Of a stretch of 64,000 nt of DNA, positions 10,801 through 45,500 are shown piece after piece. The notes beneath the pieces are model-generated. The model did not search any database. It worked only from the letters and a program-made list of their open reading frames with translations, and had not been told where the DNA came from. The translations under genes and the position numbers were made by a program. How positions within the stretch are numbered: position 1 is the first letter of the stretch; every line of letters starts with the position of its first letter. Source of the DNA: Eledone cirrhosa (lineage: Eukaryota); contig OZ024741.1 in the NCBI GenBank assembly GCA_964016885.1, positions 275,714,001 through 275,778,000 of the forward strand. Direction: 5' to 3'.

Positions 10801-13800
10801 GGACGTAACTATATGCCACAGAGCATGTCTGACGCTCTACCGATACTGCCAATCCACTGCCCTAAACATGGATAAAATAATAACATAGAGAACAGTTTCT
10901 CAAATACCTGCAGATTGAGTCAATGGTAGTATTGTCAAGATCCAATGATTGCAAGATGAAGGCTGGACAAACCGGCTTTGGTCTGGATTTACTGACCTTC
11001 AGGTTGTTGACATCTTTGTTGTTGCTTCAACAGAGAAAAACAAGTTGAGTGATTTTAATGTCCCAGACAGACACAACTTCTTGATAAAGATATTTCATTG
11101 TCACCCCCATACAACCTTGGCTAGCATGGGTTGTATGGGTATTTACAGACCAAGTTAGTATTTAACTGGTGCTACTGTCCTCCTTGACTGGTTGGGGAAG
11201 TGTGTGCGTTTCTGTCTTTTTCACATATATTTCATCTTGGTATGGTTTCTACAGCAACTACTTTACAGAGTGTACTGGGTGTAATTTATCCTAGCACCGG
11301 TACTAGAGATGTTGGCATGTCCTTGACACAACAGAAAAATCTTCTCTACCCTTTTGGCATGATTTCTACAGCCAGATGGCCTTATTATGTCATCCACTTT
11401 ACAGAGTGTACTGGGTGTAATTTATCCTAGCACCGGTACTAGAGATGTTGGCATGTCCTTGACACAACAGAAAAATCTTCTCTACCCTTTTGGCATGATT
11501 TCTACAGCCAGATGGCCTTATTATGTCATCCACTTTACAGAGTGTACTGGGTGTAATTTATCATTGCACCAGAACTAGAGAGATCGTCTTGCCATTGAAG
11601 CAACTAAAGAGTCTTCTCTAACATTCTAATAGGATTTTTATAGCTGGATACCAGGTTCAATCCCACAGAAAGGCCATCTTAAGCAAGAGTCTTTACCATA
11701 ACCTCAGCTTGACCCAAGCCCTGTCAGTGAAAATGGGTAAGCAGAATTTGTAAGGAAGCTTATTGAATGGATTGTGCCTGTAATTCAAAGGTCCAGTTTT
11801 GTCACATGCTGAGTCAGCTTGGGAATTATGTTAAGTATGTGGAATACTCAACCACTTACACATACATTTCATAGACAGGCTGCTCCATTGATTAAACAGA
11901 GTTCAAGTTTGATCAACAAAATCCCAGACCTCATTTGCTTACCGAGTGAGGTGGAACTCATCAAATTGGACCAAGGAAACAATGTTTCCATTGGTTTTGC
12001 CTCATTGCTGACACTTTCTACCAGTCGCAACTTGGACATTCATCGTCAAAACTGCCTGTAGTCCATCGATAATGATGTCAATGGTCTTTGGTAAGACTTG
12101 GCATTCATCAAACAACTGAAAATTCATCATGAAAATCAATGGAGAATCATCATCATCATTACCGTTTAAGCCTTTAGCATTTACATTACTCCATATTTAC
12201 TATTGTATTTTCATGGTAAAGACTTTATCTCACATAATCTCAAGATTTCAATGATATTATTGTTTATCTTAAGAATGATATCTTAACGATGGCATGAGCT
12301 GCTGGTTATGGCTGGTTTCAAAAAGGGAAAAGAATTCTTGCTGGATACAGCCAGTTTAAATGCTAAAGGGTTAATGTCCATTTTTTCCATGTTAGCATGG
12401 ATTAGACACGTTGTCCCTTTGTGAGACAAGTCAGATCAGGTGATGATGTTTTGCTCATACAGAACTGGTTCTAGCTTTGTTTCTATTGCTGGATGCCCTT
12501 CTTAATGCCAACCACATTTGAGGCAAGTCGAAGTCGGATGACCACGTCTTGCTCATACAGAACCATTTCTGGCTTGGTTTCTATTGCTGGATGCCATTCT
12601 TAATCCCAATCATATACAGAAACAAGATGTAGCTTACCTCCAGCTTTCATGATGGATTGTTGAGGGCTTTGATGAGGAAATTCCAGAGTGTAGTAGTGGG
12701 ACAGTTTCAATATTTTGGAGTTTGGGAAAGCATGAGCCCTGAGAAGGATTTATTTTGGAGTCTCCATCATGTTGCTTCTTGTGTCTTTTCACATACAGTT
12801 TCCAACGCAACGCAAACTTCTGTGCAAGGGTAAATGTGGAAAGAGCATCCTGTAACGAGAACAATTTTAATGATATATATACTCCATATGTGTATGTGTG
12901 TGACAGCTCACACCTATGCAGGTTTAGCTGGCCTCCTCCAAGGTATATCTCGGAGGTCATCATCATCATTTCATTTTACATCCGCTTTTTCCCTGCTTGC
13001 AAGGGTGGGACGGGAACTGATTGTGGCTTGATTTCTACAGCTGGATGCCCTTCCTAACACCAACCTCATTTACAGTGAGTGCTGGGTGCTTTTTTGCCGT
13101 GGCACCTGCACGACCACTTTGCAGTGGAATGATATGGACCCCAGTCCCTATCATCTCATTTCTACAGCTGAGTAAACTGGAGCAATGTGAAATAAAGTGT
13201 CTTGCTCAAGGAAACAACACATCACCCGGTCTGAGAATTGAACTCACAACCTTTCGATTGCAAGGCCAATGCTCTAACCACTAAGCCATGTGCCTCCATA
13301 TGGCGTCTTGGGTAATTTAATGATAGGGACCTATCATCTCATTTCTACAGCTGAGTAAACTGGAGCAACGTGAAATAAAGTGTCTTGCACAAGGAAACAA
13401 CACATCGCCCGATCCGAGAATTGAACTCACAACTTTTCGATTGAAAGCTCAATGCTCTAACCACTAAGCCATGCGCCTCACATATGTATATGTGTGTATG
13501 TATGTACACATGTATGTATATATGTGTGTGTGTTATGTTGGTTCCACAAAAATTTCTACTATAAAGTGGTCGTGAAAGACATGACAAAAAGCACCTAGCA
13601 CACTGTAAATGTGGTTGGTGCTAGGAAGGGCATCCAGCCATAGAAAACCAGCCAGAATCAGTCCTATATGAGCAAGACACGGTCACCTGACCCAACTTGC
13701 CTCTAACCTATGCTAGCGTGGAAGATGGACGTTAAATGATGATGATGATTATAAGAATACAACTCAAACTATACATATTCCATTACTGTTATTTCAATTT

Positions 13801-14064
13801 CATTCCATATTACATATGGTTTACCATTTATTCTCCACCTCATCATCATTTCAGCTATTATTTTAGACATGCTGAGACCTTCTTTTGTCATAAATGAGTC
13901 TCAAACACTTGTTGTTTCTCTCAGAACTTTATTACTGAAGCAATGACAAAAGAAGCCTTCAGCATGTCTGAAATATAATGGATGAAACGATGAGATGGAG
14001 AATAAATGGTAAACTGCATGTAATATGTTGATGATGATGATGATGATGATGGTGGTGATGATGG

Positions 14065-14095
<31 letters not shown>

Positions 14096-17000
14096 GGTGG
14101 CGGCGGTGATGATGATGGTGATGGCGATAATGATGATGATGGTGATGGCAATATTGATGATGATGGTGATGGCAATGATGATGATAATGATGGTGGTGAT
14201 GATGATGATTGTGGTGATGATGGTGATGATGATGGCAGTGATGGTGATGATGGTAATTGTGATTTCTAATTTAGATACAAGGCCAGTAATTTGCAGGGAG
14301 AAGTCAATTATATAGACCCCCCCCCCCCCCCCAGTACTTTACTGGTACTATATTTTATCAACCTTGGAAGGCTGTAAGGCGAAGTTGACCTCCGTTGGGA
14401 TTTGAACTTACAATTTAAAGGGTTGTAACTATATACCACAAGGCATATTGTCTGATGCTCTAACAATTCTGTCAGTGAACCGATGATGATGGTCAAGGTT
14501 ATGATGATGATGATAGTAATGATGATGGTGATGATGATATCAAGCAAGATGATGATGATGATGGTAAAGGTTATGATGATGATAGTAATGATGATGATGT
14601 GCTACACAAAACCACATTAACAAGACATTCATAAAAAGTACAAAGCAACACTATGACTGCATCATATTAAAAATTCAAGTCTTTATTTAAATGTTAAACC
14701 TTTTACAATGATCTGTCCACTATTAAAGATACTATAAACATTTATATTAACAAAATCATTTCTACATATTTTCTACTAAACCATTACAAGATGTTAAGAG
14801 TTAACTCTGTCTATTAATAAAGATACTATAAACATTTGAATTAAACCCTGTTTTTAGATATCTTCAGCTAAATCATGACAGGATGTTAAAGGTTTCTTTA
14901 TGTATTTTTTAAAAGGCGATGACTGAAATTGAAGAGGTTTTTACCCTTGGCAGTGTCAACATACCTGTGTTTGTTGTTACCCTTGGCAGTGTCAACATAC
15001 CTGTGTTTGTTGTTACCTTTGGCAATGTCAATACACCTGTGTTTGTTGTTACCTTTGGCAATGTCAACATACCCGTGTTTGTTATTACCTTTGGCAATGT
15101 CAACATACCCGTGTTTGTTGTTACCTTTGACAGTGTCAACATACCTGTGTTTGTTGTGCTTGGGCAAAACTTCTTCTCCATCGACTCAGTTGATCAGCTG
15201 TAGACAACCATCTCTGTAATCCATCACGCAGCAGTCTTCTTCGACGACTAACACACGCAGCCTCTATGCGAGACTTCTTCCGCAAACTGTTGCACACAAA
15301 CATACGCCATTCTCTAAATACCTGCAAAAAGAAATCATACATCTTATTTTTTAGGTCATTCACGACCAAAGGTGACCCTAAATATATATATATATATATA
15401 TACATACACATATATATACACATTATATACACTATATATACACACACACACACATATATATATATACACACACGTTTTCTTTGTGTAGCATTTTTTTTTC
15501 TGTTACTTCACCTTCTCACTCTCATCTATCTTTCTATTTCTTCTTTTATTTTTTTATTTCTCATTCTATCTTCTGATGAAGGACTAACGTCTGAAACATA
15601 AACACTCTTATATTACTATATCAAGAATTTTAACTAATATATATAATTATTGTACTGTATTGTTTTCCTTGTTGTTTTTCTTCATCAAGTTTCATGTACA
15701 TACAAACATATATGTGCATGTATCATCATCATCATCATCATCGTTTAACATCCATTTTCCATGATTGCATGGGTTAGACAGGTTGTCATGTTATGAGACA
15801 AGTCAGGTCAGATGACCATGTTTCGCTCATATGGAATCTTCCAGAGAAGAGACGGAATGATAAAGAGGAAATAAGAAAGAGATATAAAGTAAGAATCAAC
15901 TCCAGAAGAAGATTGTACTGTTTTTTATCAATTTTGAAAGGATGAAAGGCAAAGGTGACCTAAGCGGGATTCGAACTCAAAGTGCAGAGAACTAGAACAA
16001 ATATTCTATCCAATGTTCAAATGACTCTCCTAATCCACGACCTCTCTACGCCAAACATTTACAATAATCTGTCCAACAGTAAAGGTACTATAAACATTTA
16101 AGTTAACAAACCCGTTTTTAGATATTTTCTGCTAAATTGTTTCAAAGATATTAAAGGGTTAACCCTTTAATATCTTTGAAACATTTACATTACTCTATAT
16201 TTACTATTGTATTTTCACAGTAAAGGCTTTTTCATACACAATTATCTCACATAATATCGAATCTATGACATTTGGACATTATTTATTTTGAGAACAATAT
16301 CTTAATATCAGTATGAGCAGCCGGTTACAGCTGGTTTGAACAGAAAGAGGTGAGAGAATTCTGGCCAGATATGGCCGATTGAAATGCTAAAGAGTTAAAC
16401 AACATCATCCAGTATTTACCTTACGCTGTAGTACTGTACTCCAGTGCCAGAGAGCGATATATGTTTTCCTGTTTTCTACCTGGGAGAGCTGTAGTTGCTG
16501 CTGCCATACAGTAAATGCAACTATTGTAACTCTAGTGTTGCTGAACCAGTCTGCCTGTATCTTTAGAAGCTGCAACACAAATACTACTTTTAAAGTATTA
16601 CACAACAAAACCTAACATCAGGTCTGAACATAGGTTACATATATATATATATATATACTCTTTACAAGGGCAATTGGAATATTTCAGGACTTTATTTCAA
16701 ATTACCACAGGAAGAAACCATTTTTAATTCCTGTTAATAAAACTCTTTTTTTTTCCTTTAAATAAATATCAAAATTTTACAACATATATATTTTAGTGTA
16801 TATATTTTAAATAAACTTACTGTGTATCTCTGGTTTTACAGTATATATATTTTTCACAACAAACTTACTGTGTATAAGTGGTTTTACAATAAATATACTG
16901 TGTATCTCTGGTTTTATAGTGTATATATTTTTCACACCAAACTTACTAAGTATAAGTGGTTTTACAGTATATATACTGTATATCTATGGTTTTATAGTGT

Positions 17001-20000
17001 ATATATTTTTCACACCAAACTTACTAAGTATAAGTGGTTTTACAGTATATATACTGTATATCTATGGTTTTATAGTGTATATATTTTTAGCACCAAACTT
17101 ACTGTGTATATCTGGTTTGTTGTAAAAGGTGACTAAAACGGTGGCCACCAGCAAGGGCACTCAACCATAAAACATTGCCTTAAAAATATCCCATGACATA
17201 TATGATGCTTGTTGTGGGGACTACAATGTTATGCATTGCTTTAGCCAAGGGTTACTCCATATAAAAAAACCCAGTTTCAGAAAAATTTCCCAGGTGACCC
17301 TGTAAGATCCCCCTGAAAAAATTCATACTAGCACCTATATGATGGAAAAATATCAAGTATTAGGTCAATATCTTTGATAGTTTTGAAATTATAGGCCTTT
17401 AAAATATTAATTAATTATACATTTTTTCCGAACGAGCCTCTCAGACCAATTTGAGACAGCCATTTCTCCTCTAATAAGGTAAGCACAACTTTGAAATCAT
17501 GGGTTTGGTGCTAACTTTTTCTGTAGAGTTTAAATATCTTATCAAATCAAGTATATTTTGTATATTTTTCCATCTACAGGCCTCTGAAAATTGCCAAGAA
17601 TTAAACGTACAGCAAATAAATGTATGCCTCTTTTAGGTATTTCTATCTTAATAGGTACATTAGATAAAACAACCCTAATTGTTTTCATGTTACTTAACAT
17701 ATAGTAAACCATTTCTGAGCAGTAACCATGTTAGTTACTATTATGGGATGGTCAGAATAAGTTTTTAAAATATGTGCGATTTCAAAAAATGCCCATTTGA
17801 AGCCCTTTGTTGACCATGTGGGCAGTTCACAATCGTTTTCAAATTTTTACCATGCATACTTATGAAGATGATGTGACAGAAATTTGGTTTTGTTGCTGAG
17901 CTTCTTTTCAGAGGTGTGAATTTTTAGAAATTCAGTTGTCAGTGCTTTGTACAGGATCAACTTATTCATAAAGCATGGATATAAAACACCGTTCACAGGC
18001 ATGCAACATGCTGTTTTATATCCATGCTTTATGACTAAGTTGATCCTGTACAAAACACTGAAAAGAAGCTCAGCAACAAAACCAAATTTCTGTCACATCA
18101 TCTTTAGAAGTATAAGAATGCATGGTAAAAGAATGCATGGAAAACGATAGTGAACTGCCCACATGGTGAACTAAGGGCTTCAAATGGAAATTTTTTGAAA
18201 TCGCACATATTTCAAAAATTTATTCTGACACTCCCATAATAGTAACTAACATGGTTACTGCTCAGTAACAGGAAAACAATTATGGTCGCTTTATCTAGTG
18301 TACCTATTGAGATAGAAATACCTAAAAGAGGCATACATTTAATTCTTGGCGATTTTCAGAGGCCTGTAGATGGAAAAATATATAAAATAAACTTGATTTG
18401 ATAAGATATTTGAACTCTACAGAAAAAGTTAGCCCCAAACGCATGATTTCAAAGTTGTGCTTACCTTATTAGAGGAGAAATGGCTGTCTCAAGTAGGTGT
18501 GAGAGGCTCGTTAGGAAAAAATGTATAATTAATTAATATTTTAAAGGCCTACAATTTCAAAACTATCAAAGATATTGATCTAATACTTGATATTTTTCCC
18601 ATCATATAGGTGCAGGAGCTAGTATGAATTTTTTCAGGGAGATCTGAGAGGGTCATCTGGGACCCTCTGGGTGATTTGAGATGGAATGACCCCCAAAGTA
18701 AAAAAAACCCCCAAAACACCAAAGTAATGTACTGACCTTCTTCTTGTAATTGGTGATAACCCACTGTGTCCAGGCAAGAATGGTCTTTGCTAAAAGTCTC
18801 CTTCGGTGATGTACAACTGCCGTCTGCCACTGGAGACGTCTCAACACAGAACTTTGGTATTGGGTATGCCACACATTGTACAGTCGCCACACATGACCTG
18901 AATACAATATATATATATACATATATATATATCATCATCGCTGTTTAACATTATATATATATATGTATGTATTTATGTAAAAAGTATGCAAAACTAACAA
19001 AGCAAATGCCACAGTACAATGAAGAAATATATTAGTTTAACACTTGAAATTATAGGAAAAGAGTCTTAAAGTTTCAGACACTTATATGACTGATAAGTTC
19101 CTCAGAAAGCTGGTTCAATGTAGTATAAATATATAAAGGGCAAAGGTTGATAAATAAACCAAAAGAAAGTGATGTTTTACCCATTATATTTCAAGATAAT
19201 ATTTCAGGGCTATAACCCTTTTTTCAAATGTGAAACAAAAACGGTTCAAAACAAAAAACAAACACTCGATATGTTGTTCCCTAATTGGTTTAAGTGTCTA
19301 AAATTCACGTGTGGAGCCATTATAGTAGCCAATCCGCTTTGTGCATTTCCAATCTATTTTTTTATATGTGTTTTTTTTTCTTGTTCATGACAATGTATAT
19401 AAATATATATATATATATATATAGATTTCTCAGAGGTTTTGCTCCCTATTTGATTTCTTCCCTAAGTAAACTGTGGTATGAACAATAAAATGTCTTGCCC
19501 CAACAAAACACATGGAAACACATAGAGTAATAAAAACCTACTCACGGTGCTCCAAGGTAGTTTGAACTGTGCTCACCCAGCTTCGGGTCTCTGATTTCTT
19601 GTAGGCATGGATGGCTGAATAGGCGCGCCATGTGAACATGATCTGTGGCATAAGAGAGATAGATACATTGGACAAAGATGAAAGATGACCTTAAAATGAA
19701 GGTTGTGATGAGGCCTGTAAGGTTAAACCCTGTTTTAGCAGGGAAGATGACCTTAAAATGAAGGTTGTGATGAGGCCTGTAAGGTTAAACCCTGTTTTAG
19801 CAGGGAAGATGACCTTAAAATGAAGGTTGTGATGAGGCCTGTAAGGTTAAACCCTGTTTTAGCAGGGAAGATGACCTTAAAATGAAGGTTGTGATGAGGC
19901 CTGTAAGGTTAAACCCTGTTTTAGCAGGGAAGATGACCTTAAAAATGAAGGTTGTGATGAGGCCTGTAAGCTTGAACCTTGGTTTAGTAAGGAAGATGGT

Positions 20001-20623
20001 CTTAAAGTACTTGATGTTTGATGTCGTATTACAGTAAACGAAAGCAAGTCACCTTTGAGAGTAAATTTCTGTTGTAAAACACTGCAGCTGTGCACTCCTG
20101 CTGTCTGTTATGCATTCCTTCACTACATACTGCACGCCACTGCACAAATCTCTCTCTACAAAAGATACAGAATATTTCTATAAATAAGTAACAAAGTATG
20201 CATACAAACATACAAAGTTAAAAACATTCATATGTGTGTGTGTATATATATTTATATACAAGCATGGAAAAAACATGCAAAAATGGGAGCCCCTGCATGG
20301 ACACACTGGAAGAAGGAGACCGTGGTTGACATATGTTTATGCCCAAGGACTTAGATTCTGCATATGCTGCAGCGAAAGAAAAAGGCAATGGCCATGCTCA
20401 TGCAACACATGTGAAAGTTGTTTAGATCAAGTGAATTCCTGTGCCTGAAGATTTTTTAGGTGAAGAAAGGCTAGAGCTGTGAAATCTTACATGCATTAAT
20501 TTCAACTTTTCTTATTAATGACTGCATTGTTTCTTTCCGGGGACTATGTTGAAAAAATAAACCTCATTTGGTCATTTCATGAGAGTATCTTGGTCAGCCT
20601 ATGAACTTTTCAGCCGACCCTTG

Positions 20624-20654
<31 letters not shown>

Positions 20655-23600
20655 CTGAAAGTGGACTGAAAAGTTAATAGGCTGACTATGAAGAAGTGAT
20701 GCTAGAGCTGTGACCCTCGTGTAAGTGTGTGTCAGGGATTTTCCCCTACACTTCATTATTCACAAGTCTGATGAGACTCGACAGGTTATATATATATATA
20801 TACACGCTGACAGACACTTACATACACATCTGCATATATACCCACACATTATATATATATATAAACATACGTAGAGATAATAGAATGCTGTAGTTTGCTT
20901 GAAGCAGTGTGTAAAACAAGATGAGACGAGAGAATCAGTGTATTGTGATTTGGTTTACTTACTTCAGTATCTTGTGACGGGAAATTAAATACATCTTCAT
21001 GGCTTCCATTTTTACTGAACGACACTGTGTGATGTAGAGATGCCAGGCAAAGAAATATTTACGATAGAGATGAGATTCGTAATGTTGCCGTGCACGACTG
21101 TATATCAATTCCTTCTGTTGACACATCTGATGATACTATACAGGTAAAAAACAAGATATATATATATAAATGGTTTATAGGTTTATATAATATATAGAAA
21201 AACCTCCTTAGTGTTGGAGATCTACACAATAAAAAGACATTTATATATATATATATCATCACTGTTTAACATGTATTTTTCCATGCTTGCATGGGTTAGA
21301 CGGGTCATCCACATCATGAAACAAGGCCATGCTGTACCTTGCTCAAACAGAACTGTATTTTGGCTGGGGTTTTTTACAGCTGGATGCCCTTCCTAACACC
21401 AACCACGTTTACAATATAAATATATGGTTGAAAGGTTTATATAATATATAAATACTAGAAAACTGCCCTCGTGTTCGTGATTTACAGAATAAGCCCCCAG
21501 TACACTCTAAAGTAGTTGGTGATAGGAAGATTATTGGGCCATACAAAACTGGCTAAACAAAGTGTCAGGAAGACTCTTGAGCTATGCCGAAGACATGACA
21601 AATTTCTCTAGTGTTGATGCCATGATAAAAAGCACTCAGTAGAGTGAAGGATCATATGTTGGGCCCCTGACCAACTTGGAAGTCTGGAGCTCCACTTGAG
21701 TACTGACCAGCCTGTGATGACATGTCCGACCTAAGCTGGCAGGCAAAATGAACATTAAACGATGATGATGATGATGATGATAGTATATCTGTGTTATAAA
21801 TATTGAAAACAGTTATATTAATTATAGTGAATTTTTATTGATATAAAAACAAAGTTTCTTTTGCTCTATATGAACTCTCCTACACTCATCTTTCTACACC
21901 TTAACTTTTTAGCCTTTACATTACTCTGTATTTACTATTATATTTTCATAGTAAAGGCTTTATCTCACATAATATCAAATCTATGAGATTTTGATACTAT
22001 TTATTTTGAGAACAATACCTTAACATCAGTATGAGTGGCTGGTTACAGCTGGTTTGAATAGAAAGAGGTGAGCGAATTTTGGCTGGATATGGCTAGTTTA
22101 AATGCTAAAGGGTTAACCTGCCTCCTCTCCCAGAACAGTTACTACACCTCTTAACCCTTTAGCATTTATATTACTCTATATATACTATTGTATTTTCGCG
22201 GTAAATACTTTATTTCACATAATTATCTCATATAATATAGAATCTATGAGATTTTGATATTTATTTTGAGAATAATACCTTAATGTTGGATGAGCAGCCA
22301 GTTACGGCTGGTTTGAACAGAGTGAGGTGAGAGAATTCTGGCCGGATGCAGCCAGTTTAAATGCTAAAGAGTTAATCCAACCAATTCTCATTTTAATTCT
22401 GTCACCCTCACAAATACGTACACACAATCAAACATAAACACACACATATATATATATATGTGTGAGTACCTGAATCCAAGCTGACAAACATCTGTATTGA
22501 ATGTGACTGTAATACCAGACTGTAGCAAACATTTCAAGACGATTCCTGCAAGAAAAAGATTTGGGTAGATTTAGAAAGACAGTTTATCAAATGTGTAATG
22601 AATAACTTTCATAAGCAGTGAATTGGCAGAGTTGTTAGAATGTTGGATAGAATGCTTTGTGGTATTTGTTCTGGCTCTCTGCAGTGCCCACGACTTTTTA
22701 AAGCCTTTTTTTACTGTCTCTTATCCCATACTATACTGCACTGCACTGAGTACACTCTGTAAAGTGGTTGGTAATAGGAAGGGTATCAATGTATAGTAAA
22801 ACCTGTCAAACAACAGTTAACAAGGACTCTTCAGTTGTATCAAAGCTCTGACAGCCTCTCTAGTATTGGTGATCTACATGATAAATGTACCCAATACACT
22901 CTGTAAAGTGAATAGTGATAAGGAGGGCATCCAGCTACAGTAAAACCTGTCAAACAACAGGTAACGAGGGCTCTTCAACTGTATCAAAGACATGACAGCC
23001 ACCCTAGTGTTGGTGATTTATGTGATAAACATACTCAATACACTCTGTAAAGTAGTTGGTAATAGGCAGGGCATCCAGCTATAAAAAGAACTCTTCAGCT
23101 GTGACAGTGCTGGTGCCACAATAAAATAAAATTGGTAGAGTGTGGGAATATATGTAAGCAAGAAGCACCCCCTCCTGAAAATGAATGTTAAATGATGATG
23201 CTGATAATGATATATATATAGCCGAAGCTGAAGCATATAGACAATATGGTCATGGAGGTGCCTTGGCAAAAAACCACCCAGCCCACACTGTAAAGTTGAG
23301 CAAGACACTTTATTTCACATTGCTCCAGTTTACTCAGCTGTAGAAATGAAATGATAGGGAGTGGGGCTCATATCATTCCACTACAAAGTGGTCGTGGAGG
23401 TGCCACGGCAAAAAAGCACCCAGCACTCACTGTAAATGAAGTTGGTGTTAGGAAGGGCATCCAGCTGTAGAAATCAAGCCAGAATCAGTTCCCGTATGAG
23501 CAAGACAAGGCCAGCAGATTGGGCACTGCCCACAACAGGACAACCTGTCTAACCCATGCTAGTGTGGAAGAATGAACATAAAACGGTGACAATGATGATG

Positions 23601-32900: not shown

Positions 32901-35900
32901 TTTTTTTAAGGTGGTACCCCAACATGGCCGCAGTCTAACAACTGAAATAACCAGTTAAAGAATTTAAAAAAAGAGAACAACTAAAAATGAAAGTATCTCA
33001 CCGATAGAAGGATTGAGCTCTTTGAGTCAGTGGTAAAAGTTGTTGATCATATTTGAAGTCAAGCTTGTCAGACCAGCAGTTCCAAGACACCTTCAGCAAC
33101 TATAACAAGAACGACAATAATATTGATATTGATTTCTAATTTAGGCACAAAGGTCAGCAGTTAGGGACAAGGTGTAAGTTGATTACATCACTGCTACTTT
33201 ATTCCATCGACCCCAGAAGGATGAAAGGTAAAACAGACTTCAGCAGGATTTGAACTTAGAACATAAAAAAGATCTGTAACTAAAAGCCTCAAATATTGAT
33301 TTATAATTTAGGCACAAGGCCAGTAATTAGAGACAGCGTGTAAGTTGATTTCATCAACCTCGGTACATCACTGGTACTTTATTTTATCAAGCCCCAGAAG
33401 AATGAAAGGCAAAGTTGACCTCAGCAGGATTTTAAATCAGAATGTAAAGAACCGTAACTGTATGCTGCATAAGATTTGATGAAAATAATGGTTACTGATT
33501 TAGTCACAAGACCAGCAATTTTAGGGGAGGGGATAGTCGATTAAATCGACCCAGTATTTGACTGGTACTTTAATTTATCAACCCCAGAAGGATGAAAGGC
33601 AAAGTTGACCTCGGCAGGATTTGAACTTAGAATATAGAAACCTCCCAGCCCCACACTGTAAATGTGGTTGGTGTTAGGAAGGGCATCCAGCTGTAGAAAA
33701 CCCGCCAGACAGTCCTATGCGAGCAAGACGACCACTCTTGTCTCAAGTGGGAAAACCCCCGTCCAAACCCATGCAAGCGTGGAACACGGACGCTAAACCT
33801 TGATGATGATGATGATGATGTAACTAAATGCTGAAAATATTTTTCATTTCATTTCATTTGAGTTTGAGTCCATGCTCAGGCCAAGTCGAAGACTCCACCC
33901 TCAGAGTCTGGTGTGGTTGCCAGGTTGGATTCTCTGTTTAATTTTGACATGTGTGGGAGCGAGTTTGAGTCAGTTTGTGCTCGTTGTGTATATCCTGGGA
34001 GATGGAGTTCATCTCTAATGGTGCTTAAGTATCTATCCAGCTGCAATTTGAATGATTCCACACTGCATCCTGATAGATTTCTGACATGTACCGGAATGGA
34101 GTTGAATAGTTGTGCCCCACTAACCAACAGACTTGACTCTCGCAGGGTTTTTGCTGCCTGGCCAGCCCTTTTGTTGATTGGTGGTAGCTGGCAGCGTCTT
34201 CCGTGGCGCAGTGAGTGGTAGGTTTTGATACCAAAGTTTGGCACCTTTTGCTCTATCATTTTCCAAATGTATATAATTCGGTATCGCTCAAATCTTCTTT
34301 CTATTGAGTACATCTTCAAGGTTCTGAGTCTTTGCCAATAGTCCAGGTCCCTCGTTTCTGATAAGTATGAGGTAAAATTTCTTTGGAGCGATTCCATCTT
34401 AGATAGTTGGCCCTTTGTTGTTGGTGACCACAACTGAGAACAGTAGTCAATCCTCGGAAGTATCATACTGTTCCAGAGGGTTTTCATTGTTGAGGTATCT
34501 CTTGATTTGAAGGTGCGCAAGATCCACCCGCTGTACTTTCTTGCAGTAAGACAGACTGAGTCAAGGTGTTCTCTGAATTTTAGGCTGGTTTCCATGTGGA
34601 TGCCTAAATCTTTCACACACTGTTTTTCCATTATTTGTTGTCCTGATGGGTTTCTGTAGTTTGTTGTATTTTTCAGATCTTGATCTGTTCCGTAGCGAAT
34701 TAGTTCAAACTTCTTATCATTGAACAACATGTTGTTTGTTTCCTGCCATTTGTATATGGTGGTTAGGTCCTTTTGTAAGGCCTCTGTATCCACCTCGTCT
34801 TTGATTTGTCTCATGACCCTGGTGTCATCAGCAAAGGATGAGACGTTGCTGGTTGTATCTTCATCTATGTCAGAGATGAGGATGAGAAACAGGATCGGGC
34901 CGAGTACTGTACCCTGAGGAACACTGCTGGTCACAGGTGATGGTGTTGAATGGGTTCCATATTGATTTCCATATTGATTTTTAATTTAGGAACAAAACTA
35001 ACAACTTTTTCTTTGGTAGGTGGGGGGTGCATTTTGTCTGATATTCTGGTGATTCTACCAATCTGCCAACCTAACAACAGTGACAAGAACAATAATTTAG
35101 AAACCATGTAAAAAAAAAAGGGCTGAGAGGACTGATTCTTCTGTTGTGTCAAGGGCACAATATCCTCCCTAATGTTGGTAATCTACATGATAAATACACT
35201 CAATGTCCTGATGATTTCATATGAATGAAACAGTTCTAGTCCTGTACAAGTCATTTCTATATAAAATAAATATGCTTATTCCCTACTAACTTATTGTGGT
35301 TATTTGATGATCCCTTGCAGGTCACCATCTTTAATTATATATACATATATTTTCTTGATTTCTCATTCTATTTTCTGATGAAGGACTAACATTTGAAACT
35401 TTAAGACACTTTTCCTACTATATCAAGCGTAAAACTAATAATATATTTCTTCATTGTACTCTGTCATTTGCTTTGTTATTTCTGTTTGCCTTTTGCAATA
35501 TACATATATATATACACATACACATATAAATATATATATATATGTTTTTATGTATATATGTATGTGTGTGTGTGTGTGTTTATATTTGTGCTTGTTTATG
35601 TCCAGTAACATATTAGTTTGACAAAAAGAGATTGATTAATTAAGAAGTAGACCTGTCAAAAAGGAAAAGTAGTGAGGTTGATATGACAGACTAAAATCCC
35701 TTTAAAGTGGTACCCCAGATTGACTGCAGTCTAATTCCTGAAAGAGTAAATCTAGGTATCTAAACTATAATAAAGTAAGAAGCGCGGGACTGTGTACGGT
35801 TTATAATTTTTTATCCCCTTAGTAAAATAAGTTGGATTACTTTGAATAAATAATGAATGAATATTACATAATTTATCTACTAAATTTCGTGGCTATTCAT

Positions 35901-36523: not shown

Positions 36524-39500
36524 TATGTGTGTGAATGTGTGTGCGTGTGTGTAGAGAGATCGATCAACGTGAAGAGATCAACATTTAGAGATCAACATGT
36601 AAAGATCAAATGAAGAGATCAACATGTAGAGATCAATGTGAAGAGATCAACATGTAGAGATCAACATGAAGAGATTAACATGTAGAGATCAACATGAAGA
36701 GATCAACATGTAGAGATCAACATGTAGCGATCAACATGTAGAGATTAACATGTAGAGATCAACATGAAGAAATCAACATGTAAAGATTATTATGAAAAGA
36801 TTATCATGAAGGAGTAAGACACAGTCATCTGATCTGGCTTATCTCACAACGGGACAACTTGTCTAACCCACACTAGTGTGGGAAAATGGATGTTAAACAG
36901 TAATTATGATAATGAAATCAATATGTAAAAATCAACAGATTAATATTTAAAGATGAACATGTAAAGCTGAAGATTAACTCACCAGTAAATGTACTCGATG
37001 ATAGTTTTTTGCAACATAAAGTTGAGATCTCTTCTGTTGGCAAATATCAATATCTGAGAGGAACTGATTAAGGATTTATCAGTCTTTGTCAGTCTAATTT
37101 AACATTACTTACTTGGTATTTATTTTGACATTCACTGAAGATGGATTGAGCTGGCTTTAACCAAGGCACAAGCTCAAACTAGGTGATTTTAATAGGGTCG
37201 ATATGACGGACTAAATCCCTTCAAAGTGGTGCCCTAGCATGACCACAGTCCAATGACTGAAACCAGTAAATGAATAAAGCAACAAGACCATTATGGATGG
37301 ATCCCCTTTGACCATAGTTTTGCTTGATCAGAACTGACATGTCTTATTAACTTTGTACAGTCAAAGCTACCATTCCATAAAACACATTTTACTGGTCATG
37401 TTTAGCTCTTTAACATTCACATTACTCTATATTTACTATTGTATTTTCATGGTTAAGGCTTTATCTCACATAATATATCACATAGCATTTACATTACTCT
37501 ATATTTACTATTGTATTTTCATGGTAAAGGCTTTATCTCACATAACATTTACATTACTCTATAATTATCTCACATAATATCAAATCTATGAGATTTTGAT
37601 ATCATTTATTTTGAGAACAATACCTTAATGTTGGATGAGCAGCTGGTTACGACCAGTTTGATGAGAGGTGAGAGAATTTTGGCCATATATGGCCGGTTTA
37701 AATACTAAAGGGTTAAAAGGATACAAATTCTCCAGTGAAGCCATACAGTCCGCAACAAAGAACGATGTCGTAAATTCCTCAAGTAATCTTCATTGGCCCT
37801 AAGAGCACGATGAGCCCGAAGCTGATTAGTCCAAATCTGAAATGTCTGGCGGCATATATTCTCTTTGGAAATACTGACTGCAACAGCTAGAAAAAAAAAG
37901 TTTATAAGATTAAATATAGTCATATTTTTTTTCACAATAAAAACCACCAGGTTCGCACTGATAGATGGGGGTGCTGGTGACATGACAAAAACCAGTGACA
38001 TGACAAAAACCAGTCCAACCTGTCATGCTGGTGACAACAAAAAACACCTAGTCCACCCTTTAAGATGGTCTTGCTGGTGAAATGACAAAAAGCCCAGTTG
38101 ACCCTGGAAGGTGGCCGTGAGGTGACATGGAAAAAAACCACACAGTCCACCATGTTAGATGGCTGTTTTGGAGTCACAATAAAAACACCCATCCCACATT
38201 GTAATGTGGTTGGTGTTAGGGAGGGCATCTAGCTGTAGAAACCAATCCAAAATACAGTTCTGTGTGAGTAAGACATGGTCACCTGACCCAACTTGTTTCA
38301 TAATGTGACAACTCATCTAACCCATGGAAGACTGGCAAAATAGACAATAAATAATAATGATGGTGATGATGGTGATGGCAGTGGTGATGATGATAATCAT
38401 CATCATCGTTTAATGTCTATTTTCCATGTTAGCATGGATTAGATAGCTTTTCCCATTTGAGGCAAGCTAAGTCAGATGACCGTGTCTTACTCAAAATATA
38501 TCATCATCATCATCATTTTACGTCCACTTTTCCCTGCTTGCAAGGGTGGGACGGGAACTGGTTCTGGCTTGATTTCTACAGCTGGATGCCCTTCCTAGCA
38601 CCAACCTCATTTACAGTGTGGGCTGGGTGCTTTTTTTGCCGTGGCACCTCCACGACCACTTTGCAGTGGAATGATAGGGACCCCCAGTCCCTATCATTTC
38701 ATTTCTACAGCTGAGTAAACTGGAGCAATGTGAAATAAAGTGTCTTGCTCACGGAAACAACACATCACCCGGTCTGAGAATTGAACTAACAACCTTTTGA
38801 TTGCAAGCCCAATGCTCTAACCACTAAGCCATGTGCCTCCATTAAAGAGATATATATATATATATATATATCTTTTACCTGTTCCAGCCATCCGGCTGAG
38901 GCCATGCTGGGGCACATATATATAAAAAAGAAAATTTTGCTCTACATGGCTGAATACAGTAAATGTAATCTGAGTTTTTCGAATATTAATAATAACATTC
39001 AATTCGTTTTGAGGCTTGTTTGCATAATTGCAAACGAATCGAATGTTATTATTAATATTCGAAAAACTCAGATTACATTTATTATATATATATATATATA
39101 TAGATTAAATGTTAGAGAAAATAATACCAAATTCTTGAACAAATATATTTAATGGCTTATTTGTTTAAAAAATCATATCAAAATCCAGCACACACGGATG
39201 AAAATTATCGATTATATAATCGATAAGAGTAAATGATAATATAACGAAATAATTGTTTCTACTTTAGGCACAAGGCCAGCAATTACCCAGTACATTACTG
39301 GTACTTTATTTTATCGACCCTGTAAGGATGAAAAGCAAAGTTGACCTCGGCGGGATTTGAACTCAGAATAGAAAGGGCCGTAACTCTATGCGTCAAAGCA
39401 TGACGTCCGATCTTCTACCGATACTGCCAATCCACCGCCCAAATATAACGAAATAATTGTTTCTATTTTAGGCACAAGGCCGCAATTACCCAGTACATTA

Positions 39501-42500
39501 CTGGTACTTTATTTTATCAACCCTGTAAGGATGAAAGGCAAAGTTAACTTCGGCGGGATTTAGCCGAAAATAAAATAAAATATAAAATTCAAAAATACAT
39601 GTCACTGGACTGGTATTTCGTGTTTTATATTTATTGTAGTCCCTATCTTCAATGACATGTATTTTTGAATTTTATATTTATTTGATTAGCTTGTACGCAT
39701 AAATTTGATATATCATCATCATCATTTAATGTTCGTTTTCCACACTAACATGGGTTAGACCAGTTGTCCGGACATTGTGTGACAGATCAGATGGAAGGAA
39801 AAAGACTGTATGTCCACAAACTCTCTACCCTATGGGGAGGAGGGAGGGTTTAGAAAATATGTCATATAATTAAATAAGATAAATAGAACAGAAATCATAA
39901 TTACCTTTCAGGTAGGTTTTCTCATGTCTTACAGCAATGTATGACCTCCAATGTGTATAGGTCAGTCGAATAAGGAACCAATTTTTGTGTAGCAGAGCTT
40001 TCTCACAGAGATCTATCTCTGATCTGATGTCTTCACTAGCCTCACACCAGATCTTCCAAGCCTGTCAGATATAACATAAGATTTATATATAACACAAGTA
40101 TACACTCACACATATATATAACACAAGTATACATACACACACACATATATATAACACAAGTATACATACACACACAGATATATATAACACAAGTATACAT
40201 ACACACACATATATATAACACAAGTATACATACACACACACATATATAACACAAGTATACACACACACACATATATATAACACAAGTATACATACACACA
40301 CACATATAACACAAGTATACACATACACACATATATATAACACAAGTATACACACATATATATAACACAAGTATACATACATACACATATATAACACAAG
40401 TATACATACACATATATATATATATATATATAACACAAGTATACACACACACATATATATAACACAAGTATACATACACACACACATATATATAACACAA
40501 GTATACATACACACACACATATATATAACACAAGTATACATACACACACATATATATAACACAAGTATACATATACACACACATATATAACACAAGTATA
40601 CACACACACACATATATAACACGAGTATACATACACACACATATATAACACAAGTATACATACACACACATATATAACACATATATATATATATATAACA
40701 CAAGTATACATACACACATATATAACACAAGTATACATACACACAGATATAACACAAGTATACATACACACACATATATAATACAAGTATACATAGACAC
40801 ACACACATCATCATCATCACCGTTTTACGTCCGTTCTTCCACGCTAGCATGGGTTAGACAGGTTGTCCTGTTGTGGGCAGTGTCCAGTCGGCTGACCTTG
40901 TCTTGCTCATACGGGAACTGATTCTGGCTTGATTTCTACAGCTGGATGCCCTTCCTAACACCAACCTCATTTACAGTGTGGGCTGGGTGTTTTTTTGCCG
41001 TGGCACCTCCACGACCACTTTACAGTGGGAGGGTGAGGGAGCATATTGTCTATATGCTTCAGCTTCGGCTTGTACCCGTGGGGAGTCGGGTATTCTGTAT
41101 TACTGCATGACATCAGAGGTCATGTGTCAGCGCCTTTGAGAGGTGTAATTGGGTAAGGTCGGCTTTTATCAACTCATCCTAGGTCTTCTTGGGTCTCCCC
41201 ACTCCGCGGTTTCCATCGACTTCTAGTGTTCTGCACCTTTTTATGCAGCTGTCATCCTTCATACGCATCACATGTCCATACCAACGCAACCGCCTCTACT
41301 GCACACAGCATTTGATTCCTTTTATGCTCACTCTCTCTCTCAAATCATTTATGTTTTGCCGTCCGCGTATATTACTATTACACATCCATCGGAGTATGCA
41401 GGCTTCATTTCTTTCTAATCTACGCAAGTCTTCTACATTCAGCACCCAGGTCTCACTACCATGTAACATTGCTGTTCGTATACACGCATCATACAGTCTG
41501 CCTTTCATTTTGAGGGAGAAGCCTTTTGCAGCTAGCAGTGGCAGTAGCTCCCTGAACTTCTTCCATCCCGTTTTTACCCTAGTTATTGTACTTTCTGAAC
41601 AGCCACCTCCGCTGCTAATTTGGTCACCTAGGTAGCAGAAGCTGTCTACTGTTTCAACAGAGCCCTCCCAGAGTTTGGCGGTACTTGTTTCCTGTGGCTG
41701 TTTGCTGTCCCAGCACAGCTGCTACATGTGAAGCCTACATTCTTAGTTAAGCTTCCTGAGATCCCGCTACATCTCTTGTGTACCCATTGTTTGCATTCGG
41801 GGCAGGGAATGGAGTTCCTACCTACACCTTTGCTACATACTGAGCAAGGCCATTTCCCTGAGAGGATCTGGGTTCTGTTTTCTCGTCTACTTACAAGGAC
41901 CTTAGTCTTTGTCAGGTTGACTTTGAGACCCTTTCTTTCTAGTCCCTGCTTCCAAGTTTGGAATTTCTTCTCTAGTTCTACCATAGATTCAGCTATAAGT
42001 GCGAGGTCATCTGCATACAGGAGTTCCCATGGGCATCCAGTCTTAAACTCCTCCGTTATTGCCTGCAGGACTACGATGAACAGGAGAGGGTTAAGAACAG
42101 AGCCCTGGTGGACACCGACCTGTACGCTAAATTCCTCGCTATACTCATTGCTAATCCTAACTTTACTGACTGCTCCCCTATACATGGCTTGTACAGCTTT
42201 CACAAGCCATTCATCTACTCCTAGTTTTCTAAGAGCCCACCAGATTATAGCATGTGGAACTCTGTCAAAGGCTTTCTCGAGATCGACGAATGCCAGGTAG
42301 AGTGGCTTACTTTTAGCTAGGTACTTTTCCTGTAACTGCTGCCCAAGGAAGAGGGCATCAGTGGTGCCTCTTCCTGGTACAAACCCAAATTGCATCTCAT
42401 CTAGTTTCACCCAGTCCCTAATCAACTGTGCTATAACTTTTTCTGTTACTTTCATGACCTGGTCCACCAGCTTTATACCGCTATAGTTTCCTCTATCTAG

Positions 42501-45500
42501 TGCATCACCTTTACCTTTGTAACAGTTGACAATGATGCTACTGCACCAATCCTTTGGTATGACACCTTCTAGTATTACCTGGTTAACAATACGTGGTTAT
42601 AGTGTGACCTACTGACCCAGATGCCTTCAGCATCTCGGCAGCTATACCCGATGGACCGGTTGCCTTCCCCGTCTTCATATCTTTGATTGCCTTACTTACT
42701 ACGCTGCTGCTGACTTGTACTGCCGGCCCCTCTATAGGGTCTACTTGGGTTAGGGTCTCTTGTTCCCATGCATTCTCCTCATTTAGTAATCTATCATCAT
42801 GGCTCTTCCACGCATCTTTCTTCTCAGCACTTGTGAGGGCAAGCTCACCTTTATCATTCCGGATACACTTCTCTCCAATGACATCACATTCTCTTTGACA
42901 GACTGCCTTGCAATCTTGAACACCTCCTGTTTCTGGACCTCACGTTGCAAAACATGCTTGAATTTTCTATCCTCTGCTTCCCTCCTAGCTAAGTATACTT
43001 GTTGCCTAGCTTCCCTCCTGGTCTCTATGTAATGTACCCTGCTTCCCTCGTTCTTCCATTCTTTCCATGCCTGTCTCTTGGCCTTAACTGCCTCATCTAC
43101 CTTATTGTTCCACCACCAAGTCACTCTCCTCCTGCTTGTGGTCTTAATCCAGTCACAGATCTCATCCGTCGCCTCTAGTAAGTTATTTTTTAAGAACTCC
43201 CAGTGCTCTTCTACATTGAATGTCTCTATCTGTTCTTTACTGTTGTAGGCATTGAATAAAATATCTTTAAATCTGTTACTGGCTGAGGGGTCTTTCAGCT
43301 TCCAGATCTTTCTTCTCCAGGTTGGCCTCTGTTTCCAGGTTTGTCTAGTTCTGACCGTGAGGTCGCTGACAACTAAGCTATGTTGGGAGGTATATTTCTC
43401 ACTAGGGAAGGCTTTTGTGTTTATGACTGTCCATCTGTCACGTCCTCTGATGAGGATAAAATCTATCTGATTAGAATGCTCCCCTGATCTATAGGTGATC
43501 AGGTGGTTGTCGGGTTTTTTGAAGTTTGTGTTACATATCTATAATATTATATTGTGCTACATATCTATAATATTATAAAGCTGAGCGTTGTATGTATGTA
43601 TCCTACACACCTCCCTATAGTTTCTTAGCTTTACTCTTTCCGTCGCTCTTCCCTCTCTCTACAATAGATCATTCTTCCTCTCTATAATTTAACTGCTTTA
43701 CTCTCTCTGTCGCTCTTCACTCTCTATATGACAACACTGTTTTAGTTTCCGTATCTCCCTTCAATATATACACATAGAGAGAGAGAGAGAAAGAAAGAGA
43801 GAGAGAGAAAGAGAGATTTAGAGAAAGATTAGGAAAACTACACACACACATCTACAGAGAGAGACAGAAAAACAGAGGGGGGGGGAAGAGAGAGATAGGC
43901 CGTTAGACAGAGAGAGATACAATTAGAGTGTTAGTTATTGAGAGAGAGAGAGAGAGAGGGACCAGCAAGTGACCGAATTTCCAATGACGTTAAATCAAGT
44001 ATCGGCATTAAAATAATTTTGAAATAAACAATGTGTATGATCAAATGTAGCGGTGATTGAAAAATAACGTTAATTACAGTGGTATATCTTTCATCTGTCG
44101 TGGTTCGCATAACACACACACACACACATACTTTCCCACCTGATTTCGCCAATTGCCGGAAAACATCAAAACAAAACACACAGACACACACATGCACACA
44201 TTCACATACACACATTCACATACACAAACACACACACACATCTATACTTATAAAGCTGACAGTCGTATATATGTATGCAGGGCCGTCTTAACAGCATTAT
44301 AGGCCCCCGGGCAAAGCAGAGCACTGTGGCCCCTATTGACAGCAAGTCGCTACATACATAGATTAGCATGGGTCCCCTATCCTCGTGGGGCCCCCGGGCA
44401 ACTGCCCAGCCTGCCCATGCGTTAAGACGGCCCTGTATGTATGGTATGTATATTAACAACACAGCTTAATTCTTTCTTTTTAAACTCATTTCTACGGTAG
44501 CTCCTCCCCTTTGCTACGAAGTTGGAAGGACAATGTGACACGGGAGGGTGTGTGGTATCTTTGCAGTGGCGTGGTGGGGGCAGGTATACCTGGCCGAGCG
44601 CCAGCCGGACGGGCCAGCTAGTATATATATATAACACAAGTATACATACACACACATATATATAACACAAGTATACATACACACACATATATAAACACAA
44701 GTATACATACACACACATATATATAACACAAGTATACATACACACACATATATAACACAAGTATACATACACACACACACATATATATATAACACAAGTA
44801 TACATACACACACATATATATATAACACAAGTATACATACAGACACGTATATATATATAACACAAATATACATATATAACACAAGTATACATACACACAC
44901 ATATATATATAACACAAGTATACATACACACACACGTATATATATATAACACAAGTATACATACACACATACATATATAAACACAAGTATACATACACAC
45001 ACATATATAACACAAGTATACATACACACACATATAACAAGTATACACACACACACACACATATATATATAACACAAGTATACATATACACATACATATA
45101 TAAACACAAGTATACCTACACACACATATAACACAAGTATACATACACACACACATATATATATATATATAACACAAGTATACATACACACATACACACA
45201 TATCATCATCATCATTTTACGTCCGCTTTTCCCTGCTTGCAAGGGCGGGACGGGTCTTATTCAGCACAGCATCTCTCCACTCGTCACAGTCCCTCGTCAT
45301 CTCCACCGTGAGCTTCAATGATCTGAGGTCTGTTCTCACCACCTCCGCCCATCTTTTTCGTGGTCTACCTCTACCACGTCTTCCTTCAACTGGCAATTCC
45401 TGGCACTTCTTCACCCATCGGTCATCCTCCATGCGCATCACATGTCCATACCACCTCAGTCTCCTCTCCCGTACACTACATTCTATCCCTCTCAGACACA

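What the first reader, a model, noticed from the sequence alone, without database searches (positions are those of the whole stretch)
17249..18692. 1.44-kb foldback element forming a roughly 700-bp dsRNA stem just inside an SFI1 intron
Seen: two long inverted arms with scattered mismatches and a few indels close on a loop of about 23 nt. The ends are GGG/CCC with a CCAA 4-bp duplication. The element begins 45 nt after the donor of exon 18737-18897. Established: long TIRs, GRG termini and 4-bp TSDs characterise Sola2 transposons, and coleoids have very extensive ADAR editing. Inference: a strong hyper-editing or endo-siRNA substrate that could affect editing or splicing of the adjacent exon.
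Basis: partly seen in the sequence, partly recalled or inferred. Interest (0 to 1): 0.72.

Follow-up and report, generated by a model that had tools for sequence, protein, structure and literature searches.

The report
Collapsed Sola2 transposon hairpin in intron
This 1.44-kb mirror-image stretch in an intron is one dead copy, among dozens in the genome, of a known kind of cut-and-paste transposon that has lost everything between its two long matching ends, so the host RNA is predicted to fold here into a long double strand that is likely edited like other repeat hairpins, and no effect on the neighbouring exon was shown.

Summary
Arms 17249-17988 and 18012-18692 are 94% identical around a 23-nt loop, with GGG/CCC ends and a CCAA duplication, starting at base 45 of an intron in a gene with Sfi1-type 33-residue repeats. 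The Sola2 call is now backed by protein evidence. Sibling copies carry decayed transposase whose relative matches the published Sola2 alignment, 11 of 20 two-ended copies have exact 4-bp duplications, and the loop itself is a scrap of that transposase. The hairpin likely arose when a deletion, unique to this copy and joined at a 3-nt microhomology, removed the interior between the ~745-bp terminal repeats. The arms are no more alike than either is to its closest sibling copies, and there is no excess of pairing-preserving changes, so nothing points to selection on the stem. Editing is likely, by analogy with repeat editing in cephalopods, but no RNA run was available. The exon does not pair with the element in the fold. 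One side result: a subfamily spread with an inverted copy of the transposase start, as in Galileo's extended repeats. The scan had not noted this family before; it had noted other foldback families in this genome. Verdict: an ordinary new member of a known kind.

The parts
17245..17248 (+). Left target-site duplication, CCAA
   Evidence: Sequence; exact 4-bp duplication
17249..17988 (+). Left terminal inverted repeat, 740 nt, end type A; 95.6% identical to the family majority
17989..18011 (-). 23-nt loop: remnant of the transposase reading frame (the MLHACER stretch, about residues 327-333 of the relative P0004), read inward from the right arm
   Evidence: tblastn of P0004 on the element covers this stretch (8 residues, E 0.045, weak alone); the same bases follow the arm in sibling copies, where they run on into transposase
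17986..17988 (+). 3-nt microhomology (ACA) at the internal deletion junction; the junction is unique in the genome
   Evidence: Sibling sequences; 1 match genome-wide at up to 2 mismatches, control 0
18012..18692 (-). Right terminal inverted repeat, 681 nt, end type B, with 15-, 22- and 31-nt deletions; 95.8% identical to the family majority
18693..18696 (+). Right target-site duplication, CCAA
18737..18897 (-). Host coding exon upstream of the element (161 nt, phase 1 to 0), SFI1-like gene
   Evidence: AG/GT ends and an open in-phase chain of 7 exons
16570..18736 (-). Host intron, 2167 nt, of which the element is 1444 nt
16420..16569 (-). Host coding exon downstream of the element (150 nt, phase 0 to 0)
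12638..21135 (-). Seven in-phase exons (21135-20963, 20155-20053, 19642-19546, 18897-18737, 16569-16420, 15321-15145, 12849-12638) giving 357 aa without a stop, with tryptophans spaced 33,33,37,33,33,33,33,37
   Evidence: repeat pattern compared with PMC2173958

Best explanation
This is a non-coding, two-end-only copy of a Sola2-type cut-and-paste DNA transposon with a 4-bp target duplication in an intron of an SFI1-like gene; a deletion between its two ~745-bp terminal inverted repeats likely brought them to within 23 nt of each other, so the pre-mRNA is predicted to fold into a ~620-bp stem that is likely edited promiscuously by ADAR and likely spliced out without benefit or harm. Steps: (1) Shown: the family has ~745-bp inverted ends, GGG termini and 4-bp duplications, and sibling copies hold broken transposase from residue ~325 to the stop. 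(2) Shown: no close family copy with the first ~324 residues was found, so the spreading form likely already depended on a transposase supplied in trans. (3) Shown: four copies share a junction that joins the transposase stop codon to an inverted copy of the arm plus the transposase start; the focal copy likely derives from this layout, because its B end continues into the transposase start. (4) Inferred: a microhomology-joined deletion, during gap repair or after insertion, removed the rest; the junction occurs once in the genome. (5) Shown: the arms have since drifted apart independently. (6) Inferred: on host transcription the stem forms, is a general ADAR substrate, and leaves both splice sites outside it.
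For: Family: 56 matches to one arm (a lower bound); 68 termini within 1 mismatch of the 26-nt end pattern, control 0. Duplications: 11 of 20 two-ended copies have an exact 4-bp duplication (6 not TATA: CATA, AACA, TAAA, CCAA, ATCC, CAAT), 6 have one mismatch, 3 none by the script, one of which is exact on a 1-base shift. Termini: 48 of 69 start GGG and 6 GAG. Transposase: a 107-aa open fragment from a sibling is 62% identical to the 764-aa P0004; 20 of 23 loci examined carry pieces of P0004 residues 325-764. P0004 shares the motifs FCELRPKWC, HSVCVC.YHQNAKLL, CMLH.C..CP, LLDFAENY, FSDGA.SQYKN, WH.FATSHG and CDG.GGTVKRLVARASLQ with Sola2-2_HM in supplementary file 10 of PMC3627910 (compared by eye). 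Layouts: of 33 inner boundaries, B/transposase-side 10, A/transposase-side 8, B/UTR-side 5, A/UTR-side 1, the rest unclassified; shared inverted junction in 4 copies against 8 with the normal 3' flank. Neutral drift: arm-to-arm identity 93.8%, nearest sibling arms 93.7% and 94.4%; 20 and 21 private changes against 5 shared, a rate of 0.008 per site within the between-copy control (mean 0.004, 95th percentile 0.011); 4 of the 5 shared sites also occur in other copies; mismatches give 7 G-U wobbles against 10 A-C on the transcribed strand. Other copies form similar stems: 6 of 20 have 480 or more paired bases. Editing by analogy: repeats, DNA transposons included, are the main A-to-I targets across animals (PMC9989829, passages) and in squid introns and UTRs (PMC9068888, passages); ADAR-family deaminase domains are in the genome.
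Against: Editing and expression are untested. Across the 17 within-locus arm pairs, mean identity (0.926) is somewhat above the between-copy mean (0.900, sd 0.026), so some arm homogenisation or subfamily structure exists in the family; L074, L015 and L008 have 11-13 shared changes. One base change is private to both focal arms and a second lies 5 columns away, a possible short conversion tract. No Sola1 or Sola3 references were available, so the subgroup call rests on a close match to Sola2 only. No intact parent was found, and one search used a stricter first look. Whether the ~745-bp repeat is the original TIR or itself an earlier inverted copy could not be told.
Confidence: 0.85

Rival explanations
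1. The stem works as an editing inducer element: it recruits ADAR and raises site-selective editing in the exon 45-205 nt upstream, or changes use of the nearby 5' splice site.
For: In mammals, long intronic stems and inverted Alus induce editing at sites tens to hundreds of nt away (PMC4053975 abstract; PMC5654063 passages, distances 32-220 nt in the rows seen). The fold predicts a short interrupted duplex between exon bases 18846-18864 and intron bases 18730-18710, just after the donor. Coleoids recode extensively (PMC9068888).
Against: Exon plus first 44 intron bases fold no better than shuffles (z -0.78, 44 of 200 as good); the z -2.41 of a wider window includes AT repeats and the element's own small hairpin. 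No exon base pairs with the element. The arms show no selection for pairing.
Confidence: 0.08
2. The stem is mainly a Dicer substrate that yields small RNAs silencing the family or the host gene.
For: 12 unbroken helices of 21 bp or more; MITE-derived small RNAs are known from other organisms (recalled).
Against: The RNA is intronic and likely nuclear and short-lived (inference); the family appears dead, so there is little to silence; no Rfam match in 16400-19700.
Confidence: 0.05
3. The palindrome is an assembly or library artefact, or a local inverted duplication unrelated to transposition.
For: No listed short-read contig bridged the loop or the right junction.
Against: The arms differ at 36 positions plus indels, the two ends are the family's distinct A and B types, a 4-bp duplication flanks both, and siblings elsewhere have the same ends and duplications.
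Confidence: 0.02

Closest known systems
Sola2 DNA transposons (Bao et al. 2009, text not available here; alignment seen in supplementary file 10 of PMC3627910; closest row Sola2-2_HM)
   Same: Transposase motifs, 4-bp mostly AT-rich duplications, GGG/GAG termini, long inverted ends (the last two traits are recalled, not read here).
   Different: This copy has no coding capacity; the family lacks the first ~324 transposase residues in all close copies found; the focal duplication CCAA is not AT-rich.
Galileo of Drosophila mojavensis, '2 TIR' and 'extended TIR' copies (PMC3573991; abstract and passages)
   Same: Long TIRs, many copies reduced to two TIRs with a short middle, chimeric ends, and TIRs extended by recruiting internal sequence.
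   Different: Galileo is a P-superfamily element with 7-bp duplications and internally repetitive TIRs; this family is Sola2-type with 4-bp duplications, and no tandem repeats were seen in its arms.
Inverted Alu pairs and editing inducer elements (PMC4053975, PMC5654063)
   Same: A long imperfect intronic duplex close to an exon.
   Different: Here one transposon supplies both arms; no edited exon site and no conservation of the stem are shown.
SFI1 centrin-binding protein (PMC2173958; passages)
   Same: Uniform 33-residue repeats with occasional 37-mers, ending in F/L-x-x-W, followed by a proline- and serine-containing tail.
   Different: Orthology was not confirmed by any database hit; the Pfam Sfi1 model gave no match.

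Membership tests
Sola2 | DDD transposase of the Sola2 group | tested here: met
   Sibling fragment 62% identical to P0004; family copies carry DFAENY, FSDGA and HGK..DG.GG; P0004 matches the Sola2 alignment motif by motif, by eye.
Sola2 | Closer to Sola2 than to Sola1 or Sola3 in a tree | not testable with these tools
   No Sola1 or Sola3 reference sequences were held; Pfam gave no significant match for these proteins, and PMC5751038 says Pfam lacks Sola models.
Sola2 | 4-bp target-site duplication (stated for Sola2 in PMC3627910) | tested here: met
   Exact in 11 of 20 two-ended copies, one mismatch in 6, none in 3; focal copy CCAA.
Sola2 | 5'-GRG termini (recalled; not found in the library) | tested here: met
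   54 of 69 termini begin GGG or GAG.
Sola2 | Long TIRs of several hundred bp (recalled; not found in the library; PMC3627910 describes amoebozoan Sola2 with 12-21-bp TIRs) | tested here: inconclusive
   The family's inverted ends are ~745 bp, but the reference range could not be read and is not universal.
Sola2 | An autonomous, intact parent element | tested here: not met
   No close copy covers residues 1-324; all long matches are broken or partial (stricter first look, counts are a floor). This bears on activity, not on descent.
Foldback / Galileo (P superfamily) | Internally repetitive TIRs and 7-bp duplications | tested here: not met
   Duplications are 4 bp; no tandem repeat family within the arms; the transposase is Sola2-type.
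Editing inducer element | Long stem within a few hundred nt of an exon | tested here: met
   623 predicted pairs starting 45 nt from the donor.
Editing inducer element | An edited site in a separate short duplex whose editing depends on the stem | not testable with these tools
   Needs RNA reads; the candidate exon-intron duplex is not above chance.
SFI1 (host gene) | Tandem ~33-aa repeats ending F/L-x-x-W-K/R | tested here: met
   Tryptophans at residues 30, 63, 96, 133, 166, 199, 232, 265 and 302 of the spliced model (9 of its 18 tryptophans), spacing 33,33,37,33,33,33,33,37; hydrophobic-pattern score 6 against a shuffle mean of 2.1, p 0.011.
SFI1 (host gene) | Database homology to SFI1 | tested here: inconclusive
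   Single short exons gave no Pfam Sfi1 hit, no homologue and only two spurious repeat ORFs; the genome search with PF08457 rang nowhere, controls included.

The most novel reading that the evidence does not exclude
A dead Sola2 copy that collapsed into a ~620-bp hairpin acts as a lineage-specific ADAR landing pad 45 nt from a splice donor, inducing recoding or altering splicing of an SFI1 exon in an octopod. Long-TIR Sola2 families, which here grew their inverted repeats to about 1 kb by copying in the transposase start, would then be a recurring source of editing inducer elements in coleoids.
Probability: 0.06. Interest if true: 0.6.

Novelty: new member of a known kind. Interest (0 to 1): 0.17.

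Why it matters
As it stands, it adds a Sola2 family to a likely octopod genome. One search for 'Sola2' with 'octopus' found only a bivalve survey, which reports Sola as restricted to bivalves among the molluscs it analysed by intact-ORF search (PMC10294476, passages). The family also shows Galileo-like growth and collapse of long inverted ends in another superfamily. If the stem were shown to drive editing of the neighbouring exon, it would be a clean natural test of whether transposon hairpins seed coleoid recoding sites, because the insertion is recent enough to have empty alleles in relatives.

Tried and rejected
No RNA holder was listed by the run search, so editing, splicing and small RNAs could not be examined. 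Laying contigs and RAD reads: no locus-specific cover of the right arm's private stretches, the right junction or the exon, and no listed joint that skips the whole element (some rows not shown); filters drop records, so this is no evidence either way. Host-gene homology searches with single exons failed; P0017 and P0018 are tandem-repeat ORFs and were discarded. The founding Sola paper (Bao et al. 2009) and Yuan and Wessler 2011 are not held. Searches for Sola2 with long TIRs or GRG found nothing relevant. Metagenome relatives of the transposase (5 loci) and six more distant Sola2-like remnants in this genome showed no usable inverted ends around the transposase and no similarity to the arm. 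Coding potential in the arms was rejected: no significant tblastn match to five transposases. Rfam gave 0 matches. Arm homogenisation by gene conversion in the focal copy was not supported beyond one or two sites. A first acceptor guess at 16590 was corrected to 16569. Duplicate loci (L019, L027 and others covering the same place) were dropped before counts; arm pieces under 180 nt were left out of the alignment. The copies analysed are the best-scoring hits, so they lean to long, young copies.

Full report
Observation. The left arm is 17249-17988, the right arm 18012-18692 and the loop 17989-18011. From 17288 inward, 597 of 633 aligned columns match (94.3%), with eight indels of 1-31 nt. The ends read CCAA|GGG and CCC|CCAA. 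The minus-strand RNA is predicted to form 623 inter-arm pairs in 12 unbroken helices of at least 21 bp. It is the only long closed inverted repeat in the window.

Host gene. Seven minus-strand exons between 21135 and 12638 join in phase, with AG/GT ends, to 357 residues without a stop. Nine of the 18 tryptophans fall at spacings of 33,33,37,33,33,33,33,37. Human SFI1 has runs of 33-mers with a 35-mer and a 37-mer, and the consensus AX7LLX3F/LX2WK/R (PMC2173958, passages). I therefore call the gene SFI1-like. No database hit confirmed it, because single exons are too short and the Pfam model rang nowhere. The element fills 1444 of 2167 nt of the intron between exons 18897-18737 and 16569-16420, and starts after 44 intronic bases. 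The genome has mollusc-type haemocyanin domains, mostly in runs of seven; seven units is the octopod pattern (recalled). It also has ADAR-family deaminase domains at four places. Earlier unreviewed notes of this scan also call it a likely octopus genome.

The family. One arm finds 56 matches in the genome (a lower bound), and the 26-nt end pattern finds 68 termini within one mismatch, control 0. The family likely has several dozen to about a hundred copies. There are two end types, A and B, which differ only in the outer ~40 nt; the focal copy is A-B, like most two-ended copies. Of 20 two-ended copies, 11 have an exact 4-bp duplication, 6 one mismatch and 3 none by the script; 54 of 69 termini begin GGG or GAG. 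Five of the exact duplications are TATA; the other six (CATA, AACA, TAAA, CCAA, ATCC, CAAT) fix the length at four.

What it descends from. Sibling copies continue past the arm into broken coding sequence. A 107-residue open piece is 62% identical to an unnamed 764-residue protein, P0004, and 20 of 23 loci examined carry parts of its residues 325-764. P0004 follows the Sola2 alignment in supplementary file 10 of PMC3627910 motif by motif and is closest by eye to the Hydra row Sola2-2_HM (both parts of the file read). That paper's text gives 4-bp duplications for Sola2 (passages). GRG termini and long TIRs as Sola2 traits are recalled; the founding paper is not held, and three searches did not find them. 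No close copy holds residues 1-324 (stricter first look), so the form that spread was likely already non-autonomous.

How the hairpin formed. In siblings the ~745-bp arm is followed either by the transposase start or by the 3' flank. The basic layout is A arm, transposase 325-764, 3' flank, B arm. Four copies on three contigs share a second layout, in which the stop codon is joined to an inverted copy of the arm plus residues 325-431; eight copies keep the normal flank. This subfamily spread with inverted repeats of up to about 1 kb, which parallels the 'extended TIR' copies of Galileo (PMC3573991, abstract and passages). In the focal copy the B arm runs into the transposase start, as in that second layout. 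The 23-nt loop is that start (MLHACER), and it meets the A arm at a 3-nt microhomology. The junction occurs once in the genome. The tight hairpin is therefore likely a private deletion product. It is not unusual for the family: 6 of 20 two-ended copies have 480 or more paired bases, and three of those close to within about 210 nt.

Is the stem maintained? Each arm is about 4.3% from the family majority. The arms are 93.8% identical to each other, and their nearest sibling arms are 93.7% and 94.4% identical. They have 20 and 21 private changes and 5 shared ones, inside the between-copy control range; four of the five shared changes occur in other copies too. Of the transition mismatches, 7 give G-U wobbles and 10 give A-C mismatches on the transcribed strand. 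This is what drift gives. Against a flat reading, within-locus arm pairs across the family average 0.926 against 0.900 between copies, and two close shared changes near the focal termini could be a short conversion tract.

Function. Repeats, DNA transposons among them, are the main A-to-I targets in most animals (PMC9989829, passages), and squid have a ubiquitous class of repeat-directed editing in introns and 3' UTRs (PMC9068888, passages). Editing of this stem is therefore likely, but untested. An effect on the exon has a precedent in mammalian editing inducer elements (PMC4053975, abstract and outline; PMC5654063, passages). Here no exon base pairs with the element, the donor lies outside the stem, and a short predicted exon-intron duplex is not above chance (z -0.78). 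I give the inducer or splicing reading about 8% and the small-RNA reading about 5%.

Verdict. A dead, two-ended Sola2 deletion derivative in an SFI1-like intron. It is a new member of a known kind, of low interest. Repbase and Dfam could not be searched, so the family may already be named there. Other papers cited were seen as follows: PMC5751038, PMC4455052, PMC5199201 and PMC10294476 as passages; Bao et al. 2009 not seen (recalled).

Noticed in passing
L009/L077, L016, L053, L068 (G000 C5, C2, C7, C2): A subfamily in which the transposase stop codon is joined, at one shared junction, to an inverted copy of the arm plus the first ~320 nt of the remaining transposase; those checked have 4-bp duplications (exact in two, one mismatch in one), so the rearranged form likely transposed.
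   Followed up: yes
L006, L028 (A-A ends), L022 (B-B ends); L028 has a third, B-type end 177 nt outside: Copies with two like ends, L006 with an exact 4-bp duplication, suggesting end replacement or chimeric transposition.
   Followed up: partly
window 16805-17116 and 19682-20006: A 78-bp tandem repeat in the same intron as the element and a 62-bp tandem repeat just before the acceptor of exon 19642-19546.
   Followed up: no
window 18959-19260 and 15589-15713: A very high-copy repeat 60 nt upstream of the exon's acceptor, and a 71%-identical inverted remnant two exons downstream; the pair flanks two exons (311 nt) and could weakly favour back-splicing.
   Followed up: no
window 12957-13301, 38496-38842, 56702-57045, 57307-57647: Four copies of a ~345-bp interspersed repeat, 93-97% identical, in both orientations; likely a young SINE or MITE.
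   Followed up: no
window 41299-43538, 45220-46512 and 33879-34985 (minus strand): Broken reverse-transcriptase reading frames that look like RTE-type and CR1/L2-type LINEs (recognised by eye, not searched).
   Followed up: no
window 18693-18727: The right flank holds CCAAAGTAA twice, 26 nt apart, possibly a small older duplication at the insertion site.
   Followed up: no
G000 C3:234.98 Mb, C3:143.31 Mb, C4:277.95 Mb, C2:71.81 Mb, C5:60.45 Mb, C28:59.34 Mb (L093-L098): More distant, decayed Sola2-like transposase remnants (about 30-57% identical to P0004) with no similarity to this family's arms.
   Followed up: partly
G000 C1:173.7-173.9 Mb, C26:21.9-22.0 Mb, C27: At least five haemocyanin genes with about seven functional-unit domains each; the two on C26 are an inverted pair.
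   Followed up: no
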